Positions 30,592 to 32,262 of a stretch of DNA of 64,000 nt are shown here, piece after piece; positions within the stretch are counted from its first letter, which is position 1, and each line of letters starts with the position of its first letter. A model generated the notes under the pieces. The model searched no databases. It saw only the letters and a program-made list of their open reading frames with translations, and had not been told where the DNA came from. The translations under genes were made by a program, and so were the position numbers. The stretch is from Candidatus Latescibacterota bacterium (lineage in GTDB: Bacteria; Latescibacterota; UBA2968): positions 5,120,001-5,184,000 of the forward strand of contig OZ242010.1 of the NCBI GenBank assembly GCA_965204745.1, given 5' to 3'.

Positions 30592-30715
30592 GATGGGATT
30601 TTAGCCACGAGCGGGGTACAACTGGCGACAGCCAGTTCAAAGGCACAAAAGGCACAAAAGGGGTACAACTGGCGATAGCCAGTTCAAAGGCACAATCGGT
30701 GAGACGCAAGACGGG
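30589..30715 (+). repeat. Composite repeat (two palindromes, 9-mers, heptamers); left flank of IS110
   Basis: GTACAACTGGCGAYAGCCAGTTCAAAGGCAC x2, then GAGACGC-AAGACGG. Confidence 0.88.
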
Positions 30716-30733
30716 AGATACTCTCTTAAAAGG

Positions 30734-31741
30734 TCAAGGGGTTTTCGGGGTGATTCGATAGAATTTTTCGCCCTCAAAATCTTGGTCATGGCGCAACATG
30801 CCCCAGATCGAATGGAGCAACTTTCGCATCACCGCAACGATAGCCTGCAAAGGTTTCTTGCCGCGGGCGATGAGTTGGTCATAGAAGGCTTTGACATGGC
30901 CTTCGTGTCTGATGGCCACCCAGGCAGGCATATAGAGGGCATGGCGGAGGTACTTATTCCCGGTTTTCGAGATGCGTCTTTGTGGATTGGCGGTTCCGGA
31001 TTGTTTGGGTTTGGGATCCAGGCCTGCATGTGCGACCCACTGGGGCGGTTGCATCTCCTCTGGCAAAAGGGTCAACTCGGCCAAGAGCCGCAAGGCACTC
31101 GTTTGCGCGATGCCAGGCGTCGAGCAGAGGCGTTGGTAGGCACGCTTGAGGGGCTCATCGTGCAAAACGAGATCGAGGGCTTGGCTTTCCAAGTATGCAA
31201 TCCGGCGTTTGAAGTGTCGAATATTCACCTGAATATCGCGTGCGATGAGACGTGTGCTGCGGATGTGGTAGCTCTGCGCGTGGTTGCGGCTCTGTTCGCG
31301 GATGATCTCCTGCTTGAGTTGGTCAATGCGTCTGGTGAGGGCTTGCAGTTGAAGCCGTTGCTCGCTCGGCGCTTGCCAAGGCACAAAAGGCATGCGCTCG
31401 GCATAGTCGAGGATCAACAACGCATCCTTCGCATCCGTCTTCGCCCGTTGCATGCAGGCTTGGGCGTACTTGCTCATCGCTTTGGGATTGACGACCATGA
31501 CCTTTGTGTGGCGATGCCGATGCAAGGCCAAGGCCACCCCCAAACTGTAAAGCCCGGTCGCTTCGAGGCACACAGAGACCATGTGCCCGCCCTTCGTGAG
31601 CCACTTCAGCAACCGCTTATGCGCTTGGGGATCATTGGCAAAGGTCGCTTGCATGACAGCTTGTCCGGGTCTGGACAGGGCAACGGACAACGTGCGGGCA
31701 CTGACATCAATGCCGGCAAAAGCGGGGTGAGATTTCGACAT
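30734..31741 (-). CDS. IS110 family DEDD recombinase (bridge recombinase)
   Basis: 'GIDVS', 'CLEATG.YS', 'AKTDAKDA' (DEDD), 'L.STPGI', 'AGL.P...QSGT' (catalytic Ser), 'GNKYLR.ALY', 'A.MRKL'; GGAGG SD. Confidence 0.96.
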   Translation of the reverse strand: MSKSHPAFAGIDVSARTLSVALSRPGQAVMQATFANDPQAHKRLLKWLTKGGHMVSVCLEATGLYSLGVALALHRHRHTKVMVVNPKAMSKYAQACMQRAKTDAKDALLILDYAERMPFVPWQAPSEQRLQLQALTRRIDQLKQEIIREQSRNHAQSYHIRSTRLIARDIQVNIRHFKRRIAYLESQALDLVLHDEPLKRAYQRLCSTPGIAQTSALRLLAELTLLPEEMQPPQWVAHAGLDPKPKQSGTANPQRRISKTGNKYLRHALYMPAWVAIRHEGHVKAFYDQLIARGKKPLQAIVAVMRKLLHSIWGMLRHDQDFEGEKFYRITPKTP

Positions 31742-31784
31742 GGGGGCCTCCTGTGATGAGGGGGTTGTAAGGGATCTGGTGCGC

Positions 31785-31990
31785 GCTCGGGGTCCCGACC
31801 ATTGACGCCAAGTCTACCGGTCTTGTATATGCAGCCTCAAGGGGCTTAGATACTCTTCGGCATAGACCCGGCGGTCGGGGGGCCTATCTTACCTACAAGG
31901 TCATCGCCTTCAAGAGGGGCCGGCCTTCCCCGAGCCGGGCATCAAGATGGCTTATCTCGATACGAGGGCGCAACTCCTAATTAACCCTTA
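31785..31990 (-). ncRNA. Predicted bridge RNA (5' hairpin, target-binding loop, donor-binding loop)
   Basis: Nested stems GCTCGGGG/CCCCGAGC, CCCGACC/GGTCGGG, GTCTA/TAGAC, GGCC/GGCC; internal loops contain exact copies of donor halves (31848-31856, 31822-31828) and a target left-half match (31913-31919). Confidence 0.85.
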
Positions 31991-32003
31991 CTTCCAAGAT
32001 ACA

Positions 32004-32262
32004 AGAGGGGAGACGGGAGAGGGAAGACGGGAGAGGGGAGACGGGAGAGGCAGTAGTCAGTTGCCAGTAGTCAGTGGTCAGTCCGCCCCGCCCAACTCCC
32101 TTCGGTAAGAGGGAAGACGAGAAATACAAGAGGGAAGACGCAAGAGGGAAGACGCAAGAGGGGAGAGGGGTGGCCTTCTTGCCTCTTGCCTCTTGCCTCT
32201 CACCTCTTGCCTCTCACCTTTTTGGGCGATGCTCCCGTGCGCCCGAAGATACAAGAGGTGAG
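32004..32262 (+). repeat. Composite repeat block: (RAGASGN)n, (CAGTNGT)n, CCGCCCAACTCCCTTCGG, inverted heptamer arms
   Basis: Direct reading; 32107-32170 and 32178-32219 are opposite-strand heptamer tracts able to form a hairpin. Confidence 0.88.

What the first reader, a model, noticed from the sequence alone, without database searches (positions are those of the whole stretch)
30716..32005. Intact IS110 element whose bridge RNA guides can be read directly from the sequence
Seen: the ~260-bp non-coding end upstream of the DEDD recombinase folds into nested stems with two internal loops. In transposase orientation the distal loop carries AGAGUAUCU and AUACAAG. These match exactly the predicted circle junction AGAGTAT-CT-TGTAT formed from the two element ends (30716-30724 and 31999-32005). 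The proximal loop carries GGCCCCUCU and AGGUAAG; the first matches the left flank CTCCCCT-CT at its 7 core-proximal bases. Circularisation would also join TTGACC (30732-30737, overlapping the stop codon) to TATCTT (31996-32001) with an 18-bp spacer, a junction promoter. Established: IS110/IS621 bridge RNAs use this loop layout and a CT core; from memory, this donor differs from the IS621 donor at about one position. Inference: a likely active, reprogrammable bridge-recombinase orthologue with a different target specificity.
Basis: partly seen in the sequence, partly recalled or inferred. Interest (0 to 1): 0.9.

Follow-up and report, generated by a model that had tools for sequence, protein, structure and literature searches.

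The report
Bridge-RNA IS110 element in heptamer repeats
This is one of 52 copies of an IS110-type jumping gene whose own small RNA carries readable guides for its ends and its insertion site; it is a clear new example of a mechanism described in 2024, not a new kind of system.

Summary
Window 30716-32005 (minus strand) is a 1290-bp IS110-family element. It has a 335-aa DEDD/Ser recombinase gene and a 264-nt non-coding left end that folds into two stem-loops with internal loops.

The second loop (AGAGUAUCU / AUACAAG) matches the element's two ends. The first loop (GGCCCCUCU / AGGUAAG) matches the insertion site.

The genome holds 52 full-length copies, 30 of them identical, and these fix both ends exactly. 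The flanks give the target CCCCT-CT-TACCT, inside heptamer repeat arrays. Eight guide classes across three genomes change together with their flanks. Of the perfect-match sites, 20 of 25 are occupied.

Three corrections:
- This copy's own right flank (CCCGT) does not match its right target guide.
- This copy carries a private 5-nt deletion in a variable RNA junction.
- No RNA or circle evidence could be obtained.

Verdict: a genuine, recently active bridge-RNA insertion sequence, and a new member of a known kind. A side observation may be newer: a 7-nt unit (the first five bases of the left end plus CT) sits at the exact insertion point in other repeats, possibly as a scar left by lost copies.

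The parts
30716..32005 (-). Whole IS110-family element, 1290 bp, counting the CT core at both ends
   Evidence: blastn of the genome finds 52 full-length copies with identical termini
32004..32005 (-). Left core CT
   Evidence: Shared by all 52 left junctions. From sequence alone the crossover can only be placed within TCT.
31996..32001 (-). TATCTT, the -10 half of the junction promoter
   Evidence: Conserved in the G016, G018 and G036 relatives. No complete sigma-70-like site lies upstream of the RNA in the integrated copy.
31939..31963 (-). 5' stem-loop (10-bp stem)
   Evidence: Minimum-energy fold only. Not part of the consensus across relatives.
31928..31935 (-). 5' arm of the closing stem around both guide loops (GCUCGGGG)
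   Evidence: Helix 1; 2 pairs with compensatory change
31913..31921 (-). Left target guide GGCCCCUCU (target-binding loop, 5' side)
   Evidence: Its last 7 nt equal the left flank plus core in 41 of 45 copies with these guides
31897..31911 (-). Inner stem-loop of the target-binding loop (AAGG/CCUU stem)
   Evidence: Helix 3; invariant in 21 distinct sequences
31888..31894 (-). Right target guide AGGUAAG, complementary to CT-TACCT
   Evidence: Exact for 24 of 45 copies. One G.U pair (TGCCT) in 17 of 45. This copy's flank CCCGT mismatches at 3 of 5.
31886..31887 (-). AU, candidate handshake guide of the target loop
   Evidence: Complementary to AT at donor positions 6-7. Same letters as IS621 A81/U82 (passages). 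Inference.
31848..31856 (-). Left donor guide AGAGUAUCU (donor-binding loop, 5' side)
   Evidence: Identical to the right end 30716-30724
31822..31828 (-). Right donor guide AUACAAG, complementary to CT-TGTAT
   Evidence: Matches the left end in 51 of 52 copies; c5198949 has a 1-nt insertion in its end
31820..31821 (-). AC, candidate handshake guide of the donor loop
   Evidence: A can pair with T at target position 7. G016 has G there and C in its target. Inference.
31785..31792 (-). 3' arm of the closing stem (CCCCGAGC). The private 5-nt deletion lies just 5' of it.
   Evidence: Alignment. All four laid runs carry the 5 extra letters behind 31791.
30734..31741 (-). Recombinase gene, 335 aa. 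GGAGG ribosome-binding site at 31747-31751.
   Evidence: Protein identical in 34 copies.
30732..30737 (-). TTGACC, the -35 half of the junction promoter; overlaps the stop codon
   Evidence: TTGAC(C/A) at 17-18 nt spacing in all four lineages.
30716..30724 (-). Right end AGAGTAT plus core CT
32006..32050 (.). Heptamer array holding the left target half (CTCCCCT next to the core)
   Evidence: Tandem Repeats Finder: period 7/14 over 32004-32050
30709..30715 (-). Right flank CCCGTCT, off the consensus for this copy's own guide
   Evidence: It is a perfect match for guide ACGGG-AG, carried by two truncated copies elsewhere.

Best explanation
The window holds one copy of an IS110-family insertion sequence that moves by bridge-RNA-guided recombination.

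Its 335-aa DEDD/Ser recombinase binds an RNA of about 200 nt encoded in the left end. The RNA has two internal loops.

- **Donor loop.** AGAGUAUCU / AUACAAG pairs with the two strands of the joined element ends, AGAGTAT-CT-TGTAT.
- **Target loop.** GGCCCCUCU / AGGUAAG pairs with CCCCT-CT-TACCT, a junction between two units of the genome's heptamer repeat arrays.

Exchange at the CT core inserts the circular form without a target duplication. Joining the ends also builds a TTGACC-18 nt-TATCTT promoter in front of the RNA and the gene.

**Shown here:** the anatomy, the termini, the target consensus, guide-flank covariation, and recent copy-number expansion.

**Inferred from IS621 and its relatives:** RNA expression, circle formation, and the chemistry.
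For: **Protein.**
- Pfam PF01548 (E 1.2e-24) and PF02371 (E 4.8e-20).
- NF033542 at 213.8 bits against a cut-off of 140.
- ISCro4 and IS621 structures at E 7.6e-40 and 5.8e-36. D12, E60, D103, D106 and S248 align with IS621 D11, E60, D102, D105 and S241.

**Copies.**
- 52 full-length copies, 30 of them identical.
- 51 of 52 have an intact ORF.

**Target, among the 45 copies with the main guides.**

| Feature | Count |
|---|---|
| Left half CCCCT | 41 |
| Right half TACCT | 24 |
| Right half TGCCT (one G.U pair) | 17 |

**Occupancy falls with mismatches.**

| Site | Occupied | Empty |
|---|---|---|
| CCCCTCTTACCT (perfect) | 20 | 5 |
| CCCCTCTTGCCT | 17 | 65 |
| TACCTCTTACCT | 4 | 83 |

**Covariation.**
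- Copy c1297034 has guides UCCCU-CU / AGGUG-AG and flanks TCCCT-CT-CACCT (10 of 10).
- Four copies of the ~88% subfamily have CGCCU-CU / AAGUA-AG and score 10, 9, 9 and 10 of 10.
- G016 has AGAAA-AG with a CT-TTTCT flank. G018 has CUCGCCU-CU with CTCGCCT-CT.
- Over 8 guide classes, only 4 of 40320 permutations of class labels match the flanks as well.

**Structure.** 37 pairs are 97.4% paired, and 7 are compensatory against 1.5 in shuffles.

**Promoter.** The two halves are conserved at 17-18 nt spacing in four lineages.

**IS621 donor.** It differs at 1 of 14 bases.
Against: - No RNA run is on record, and no circle-junction contig was seen.
- This copy's own right flank mismatches its guide at 3 of 5 positions, as does one other copy.
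- Copy c602780 carries guides that fit its flanks at only 7 of 10.
- Left flanks in G016 and right flanks in G018 fit only partly (6-9 of 10).
- Kin are not independent, so the permutation figure overstates the support.
- The single-sequence fold is only modestly better than shuffles (z -2.78).
- Target and donor both have T before the core. The first handshake base would therefore pair with its cognate DNA too. In IS621 such cognate pairing inhibits exchange (passages).
- The left donor guide reads AGCGUAUCU in c1297034 and in truncated copies c845255 and c1433016. c1297034's own right end is unchanged.
- The 5-nt deletion in this copy may be real or an assembly error. Its effect is unknown.
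Confidence: 0.88

Rival explanations
1. The element family is real, but this particular copy is crippled. Its bridge RNA carries a private 5-nt deletion and it sits at a site its own guide does not specify. On this reading it is a passenger that can move only with RNA supplied by sister copies, or not at all.
For: - The deletion is seen in 1 of 52 copies.
- All four laid runs show the undeleted form at 31791.
- The right flank mismatches at 3 of 5.
Against: - The deleted stretch lies in a junction where G016 and G018 RNAs also lack 6 columns.
- All helices and all four guides are unchanged.
- The ORF equals the majority protein.
- Contigs collapse 52 copies, so a rare variant would be dropped from them.
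Confidence: 0.2
2. Site choice is set by the protein or by DNA structure, such as the heptamer arrays and their hairpin context. The match between loops and flanks is then a by-product of low-complexity C/T-rich sequence.
For: - Flank positions -6 to -8 (T, C, T) are conserved in 40-43 of 45 copies although the guide reads GG at -6 and -7 and no guide base reaches -8.
- About a dozen of the 45 copies with the main guides sit just after a GGTGGCC palindrome centre (by eye).
- A 2026 preprint reports a structure requirement for ISPpu10 (abstract start only).
Against: - Guide variants differing by single bases sit at sites differing at the same positions.
- Occupancy is 20 of 25 for the perfect 12-mer, against 4 of 87 for a sister heptamer junction.
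- The same holds in G016, whose target is not a heptamer array.
Confidence: 0.07
3. The true left boundary lies 7 nt further in, at the second CT of CT-TGTAT-CT-TGG. On this reading the target is a pre-existing CTTGTAT-CT site.
For: The 9-mer CTTGTATCT occurs 178 times outside the main-type and c602780-type left ends. Such sites therefore exist.
Against: - None of the listed solo sites is followed by the TACCT or TGCCT that flanks the elements.
- The first loop covaries with the bases just 5' of the first CT.
- AUACAAG sits in the conserved second loop, as the IS621 right donor guide does.
Confidence: 0.03

Closest known systems
IS621 of Escherichia coli (Durrant et al. 2024, PMC11208160; Hiraizumi et al. 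2024, PMC11208158)
   Same: - DEDD/Ser recombinase (E 5.8e-36).
- Left-end RNA with a target loop followed by a donor loop.
- CT core read by all four guides.
- Donor 13 of 14 bases identical.
- AU handshake in the target loop.
- 27 nt from the start of the left target guide to the start of the right one in both. IS621 numbering comes; ours.
- Promoter rebuilt at the circle junction.
   Different: - Target is CCCCT-CT-TACCT in heptamer arrays; the IS621 target was not seen in print here.
- The right target guide pairs over 7 nt rather than 4.
- The right donor guide can pair contiguously.
- An extra closing stem encloses both loops.
- The 5' region is longer.
- No nucleotide similarity to any E. 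coli genome.
ISCro4 recombinase (PDB 9t56). I recall, from no call, that it is the IS622 system used for human genome rearrangement.
   Same: Best solved-structure match: E 7.6e-40 over residues 7-326.
   Different: Distant in sequence. Its RNA and target were not compared here.
ISPpu9 / ISPpu10 of Pseudomonas putida (PMC12288879, passages; 10.64898/2026.03.19.712850, listing only)
   Same: IS110-family elements that insert into one conserved position of abundant intergenic repeats and reach several copies per genome.
   Different: - Those targets are REP palindromes, and the ends carry AG.
- ISPpu9 circles make no hybrid promoter.
- Here the target is a junction of heptamer units, and a junction promoter is present.

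Membership tests
IS110-family bridge-RNA insertion sequences (IS110 group) | Recombinase with an N-terminal DEDD RuvC-like domain and a C-terminal Tnp domain carrying the catalytic serine | tested here: met
   PF01548 and PF02371. NF033542 above its cut-off. D12, E60, D103, D106 and S248 align with the IS621 catalytic residues.
IS110-family bridge-RNA insertion sequences (IS110 group) | Long non-coding left end upstream of the gene and a very short right end | tested here: met
   264 nt before the ATG and 18 nt after the stop
IS110-family bridge-RNA insertion sequences (IS110 group) | Left-end RNA with two stem-loops, each holding a large internal loop | tested here: met
   Consensus fold of 23 sequences. 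97.4% of cells paired and 7 compensatory pairs, 0 of 500 shuffles as high.
IS110-family bridge-RNA insertion sequences (IS110 group) | First loop matches the target: the 5' side has the sense of the left flank plus core, and the 3' side is complementary to core plus right flank. It covaries with the target. | tested here: met
   Exceptions: the window copy, c1927368 and c602780.
IS110-family bridge-RNA insertion sequences (IS110 group) | Second loop matches the joined element ends in the same strand pattern | tested here: met
   9 of 9 and 7 of 7 in this copy. The loop is nearly invariant across four lineages.
IS110-family bridge-RNA insertion sequences (IS110 group) | CT core at both junctions and no target-site duplication | tested here: met
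   All 52 copies. Sequence alone limits the crossover to TCT. No orthologous empty site could be aligned.
IS110-family bridge-RNA insertion sequences (IS110 group) | Sigma-70-type promoter rebuilt across the circle junction | tested here: inconclusive
   TTGACC-18-TATCTT by arithmetic, with both halves conserved in relatives. No expression data.
IS110-family bridge-RNA insertion sequences (IS110 group) | Handshake guides pair with the non-cognate DNA and not with the cognate DNA | tested here: inconclusive
   AU pairs with donor AT, and the donor-loop A pairs with target T7. Because target and donor share T7, the cognate pair forms too.
IS110-family bridge-RNA insertion sequences (IS110 group) | RNA is made, binds the recombinase, and is needed for recombination; a circular intermediate exists | not testable with these tools
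   All runs are kept as contigs and none is on record as RNA
IS110-family bridge-RNA insertion sequences (IS110 group) | Match to a curated bridge-RNA covariance model | not testable with these tools
   None of the 4227 Rfam families matches the left end at E up to 1. The published model lies in supplements that are closed.

The most novel reading that the evidence does not exclude
Loss of these elements is not always clean.

The integrated element carries GTATCT at both ends: ..CT-T[GTATCT]TGG at the left and ..AGA[GTATCT] at the right. Recombination in a register shifted by 7 nt would delete the element. This could be guided by the left-donor half alone, or it could be simple slippage. Either way it would leave LT-CT-TGTAT-CT-RT behind.

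Such 7-nt units are found exactly at the insertion point of an older subfamily. About 100 of 120 'REP2' units read ..CCCC-CT-T|CCTCG and 15 read ..CCCC-CT-TGTATCT-T|CCTCG.

The same unit also heads most of a REP-like hairpin family. That arrangement is abundant only in the two genomes of the genus (G000 and G016) that are also rich in these elements.

If this is right, a bridge recombinase writes heptamer-sized scars and helps to build the short repeat arrays it later targets. Co-resident guide variants, including orphan RNAs, could then steer each other's circles.
Probability: 0.3. Interest if true: 0.6.

Novelty: new member of a known kind. Interest (0 to 1): 0.4.

Why it matters
As an element it adds one well-defined orthologue to a class now being mined for genome editing.

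- Its donor is almost the same as that of IS621.
- It has a 12-nt natural target and a longer right target guide.
- Single-base guide variants occur naturally, each found at the matching site.

One closed genome gives 52 insertions, graded site occupancy (80%, 21%, 5%) and several guide classes. That is a natural specificity data set of a kind usually obtained from library screens.

It also shows a bridge-RNA element living in heptamer tandem repeats rather than in REP palindromes.

The candidate 7-nt scars, if confirmed, would bear on the open question of how these elements leave a site.

Tried and rejected
**Rfam.** Nothing matches the left end. The 12 weak hits are all microRNA models on the heptamer palindrome at 32120-32224, and all lie far below their gathering scores.

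**E. coli genomes.** blastn of the left end against E. coli genomes found no match. IS621 could therefore not be fetched for a direct RNA alignment or a model.

**Sequencing runs.**
- No RNA holder is listed.
- 20 rows from 8 studies hold the stretch or a part of it, all as contigs.
- In the four runs laid, no contig joins the right end to the left end. The cover says nothing about circles or expression.

**Orthologous empty site for a scar locus.** Only the neighbouring gene aligned in G016, G018 and G001. The intergenic part did not, so the scar idea rests on paralogous comparison only.

**Idea that the REP-like units are miniature elements with both ends.** Rejected: of 58 AGAGAGTATCT ends, 55 belong to the element family and only 3 lie elsewhere.

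**Idea that the REP hairpin itself depends on the element.** Rejected: hairpin variants occur in 17 of 21 genomes of the genus. The TGTATCTT-plus-hairpin form occurs at 1-3 copies in 7 of the 18 genomes of the genus where one search found no copy at E<=1e-40, none of them in G019.

**Boundary shifted by 7 nt.** Rejected; see the rival explanations.

**The 612-aa ORF beside REP2.** No Pfam family. Not pursued.

**Papers: what I saw.**

| Paper | What was read |
|---|---|
| PMC11208160 | passages, plus sections 6 and 7 in full |
| PMC11208158 | passages |
| 10.64898/2026.08.31.748434 | abstract, plus one passage of section 15 |
| PMC13626964 | abstract only |
| 10.1101/2025.10.25.684509 | passages |
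| PMC12288879 | passages |
| 10.64898/2026.08.14.744561 | passages, plus section 9 |
| 10.1101/2025.05.14.653916 | search listing only |
| 10.64898/2026.03.19.712850 | search listing only |

Supplements are closed. The orthologue tables of Durrant et al. and of the later screens may already list this element.

**Literature search for scars.** The terms IS110 + footprint + excision + bridge RNA gave 4 papers. I checked the one 'footprint' passage of the IS110 preprint, which does not mean a scar. The other three I saw only as titles and abstract starts; by these, none is about IS110 excision.
Full report
**What is there.** Window 30716-32005 is, on the minus strand, a 1290-bp element.
- A 264-nt non-coding left end.
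- A GGAGG ribosome-binding site.
- A 335-aa ORF (30734-31741).
- 18 nt after the stop codon.

The protein matches Pfam DEDD_Tnp_IS110 and Transposase_20. It matches NCBIfam NF033542, 'IS110 family RNA-guided transposase', at 213.8 bits against a cut-off of 140. Among solved structures it matches the ISCro4 and IS621 recombinases (E 7.6e-40 and 5.8e-36). D12, E60, D103, D106 and S248 align with the IS621 catalytic residues named in PMC11208158.

**Ends and copy number.** The window's genome is one contig of 5.48 Mb. It holds 52 full-length copies in 15 distinct sequences:
- 30 identical copies of 1295 bp;
- 8 identical copies of 1292 bp (96% to this copy);
- five copies near 88%;
- single variants.

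51 of the 52 have an intact 335-aa ORF, and 34 encode the same protein as the window copy. About 20 truncated copies also exist.

**The RNA.** The minimum-energy fold of this copy gives 5' hairpins and then a closing stem. The closing stem holds two stem-loops, each with a large internal loop. The z-score is only -2.78.

I aligned 23 left ends: this copy, ten variants from the same genome, six from G016, five from G018 and one from G036. On that alignment the consensus fold keeps the same helices.
- For 37 pairs, 97.4% of cells pair, against 21-47% when the partners are slid.
- 7 pairs carry compensatory changes, against 1.5 in shuffles (0 of 500 shuffles reach that).
- The stems are conserved, the second loop is nearly invariant, and the first loop varies. 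PMC11208160 (section 6) describes the same pattern.

**Donor loop.** AGAGUAUCU equals the right end plus core. AUACAAG is complementary to core plus TGTAT. IS621's donor is printed as ACAGTAT.CT.TGTAT, one base different.

**Target loop.** 45 copies carry GGCCCCUCU / AGGUAAG. Their flanks rebuild these 12-mers:

| 12-mer | Copies |
|---|---|
| CCCCTCTTACCT | 20 |
| CCCCTCTTGCCT (a G.U pair) | 17 |
| TACCTCTTACCT | 4 |
| CCCCTCTCCCGT (including the window copy) | 2 |
| CCCCTCTTACTT | 1 |
| CCCCTCTTGCCC | 1 |

Counting unoccupied copies of the same 12-mers gives occupancy of 20 of 25, 17 of 82 and 4 of 87 for the first three. The sites lie in heptamer arrays.

**Covariation.** Seven copies carry other guides. 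Their fit to their own flanks is 10, 7 and 9 of 10, and 10, 9, 9 and 10 of 10. The poor one, c602780, looks like a chimera of two subfamilies.

At E up to 1e-40, relatives occur in 4 of 41 genomes searched, counting G000 itself.
- G016 guides AGAAA-AG sit beside CT-TTTCT.
- G018 guide CUCGCCU-CU sits beside CTCGCCT-CT.
- G036 guide ACGUU-AG sits beside CT-AACGT.

Over eight guide classes, cognate guides fit best, and 4 of 40320 permutations do as well. Kin are not independent, so this is a rough control.

**Promoter.** TTGACC (30732-30737) and TATCTT (31996-32001) would lie 18 nt apart in a circle. The spacing is 17 nt in the 96% subfamily, G016, G018 and G036. No complete sigma-70-like site precedes the RNA in the integrated copy.

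**This copy.**
- It has the majority protein and the majority guides.
- It lacks 5 nt between the donor stem and the closing stem. G016 and G018 also lack those columns, so the loss is probably harmless.
- Contigs of four runs show only the undeleted form, which neither confirms nor denies the variant.
- Its right flank, CCCGT, does not fit its own guide. That flank is a perfect site for ACGGG-AG, carried by two truncated copies. Off-target insertion, guiding in trans, and later conversion of the loop cannot be told apart.

**Differences from IS621.**
- The right target guide pairs over 7 nt.
- A closing stem encloses both loops.
- The 5' region is longer.
- Target and donor share TCT(T), so the first handshake base pairs with both DNAs.

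**Side trail.** The 10-mer CTTGTATCTT occurs 217 times, and 162 of these do not continue as the main-type, ~88%-subfamily or c602780-type left end.
- Most head a REP-like hairpin: 66 of 150 hairpins are preceded by it.
- The hairpin family is genus-wide, in 17 of 21 genomes.
- The combination is common only in G000 (67) and G016 (126). G018, which also carries the element, has 3, and the other 18 genomes 0-3.

A second repeat, 'REP2', has 120 units. About 100 read ..CCCC-CT-T|CCTCG and 15 carry an extra TGTATCT at that CT. Old truncated copies sit at that very point, and their guides fit it.

This suggests 7-nt scars formed through the GTATCT repeat at both element ends. A 2026 preprint reports partial circles bounded by one donor half only. 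Spread of one scarred repeat could inflate the count, and no orthologous comparison succeeded.

**Verdict.** This is a real, recently expanded bridge-RNA insertion sequence and a new member of a known kind. No RNA or circle data exist.

Noticed in passing
Genome-wide; in the window at 32247-32262 (minus strand CTCACCT-CTTGTATCT): The first 10 nt of the element (CT core + TGTATCTT) occur 217 times, 162 of them without one of the three listed left-end continuations. Most head a REP-like hairpin, GGGCGAGCACGGGGGCATCGCCC. The combination is abundant only in G000 (67) and G016 (126) among 21 genomes of the genus.
   Followed up: partly
G000 contig positions such as 415938, 1079906 and 3668573 (loci L071-L073): 15 of 120 'REP2' units carry an extra TGTATCT exactly at the CT where an older subfamily inserted. 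These are candidate 7-nt scars. REP2 ends a multi-copy region of at least 700 bp (18 or more copies), next to a 612-aa ORF with no Pfam family.
   Followed up: partly
G000 845255-845540 and 2972659-2972844: Two truncated copies keep all or most of the bridge RNA. They carry right target guide ACGGG-AG, whose perfect site CCCCT-CT-CCCGT is where the window copy sits. They may act as orphan guide RNAs.
   Followed up: partly
L034, L038, L042 (G036; 54% protein identity): Two of three copies lack CT at the left junction (..GCGCAT|TGTAT). The left target guide ends in AU next to the inner stem, and the left donor guide has CC where the others have CU. This may be a lineage using an AT core.
   Followed up: partly
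G000 1121591-1124182: Two elements of different subfamilies lie head to tail, separated by only TACCT. The second inserted into the target half left beside the first.
   Followed up: no
G000 602780-604074: A chimeric copy. Its left-end part resembles the 88% subfamily and the rest resembles the 96% one. Its guides fit its flanks at only 7 of 10, while the flanks fit another copy's guides at 10 of 10.
   Followed up: partly
window 30614-30696: Two copies of another palindromic repeat (GGTACAACTGGCGAYAGCCAGTT...AAAGGCACA). There are 130-220 copies in the genome by motif count, and very high contig depth in the laid runs.
   Followed up: no
window 32127-32214: AG-rich and CT-rich heptamer arrays face each other around GGGGTGGCC, forming a long hairpin that draws spurious microRNA hits from Rfam. 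About a dozen of the 45 copies with the main guides sit in the first units after such a centre.
   Followed up: no
G000 3890249-3891544: The only full-length copy with a broken ORF: a frameshift gives 262 aa.
   Followed up: no
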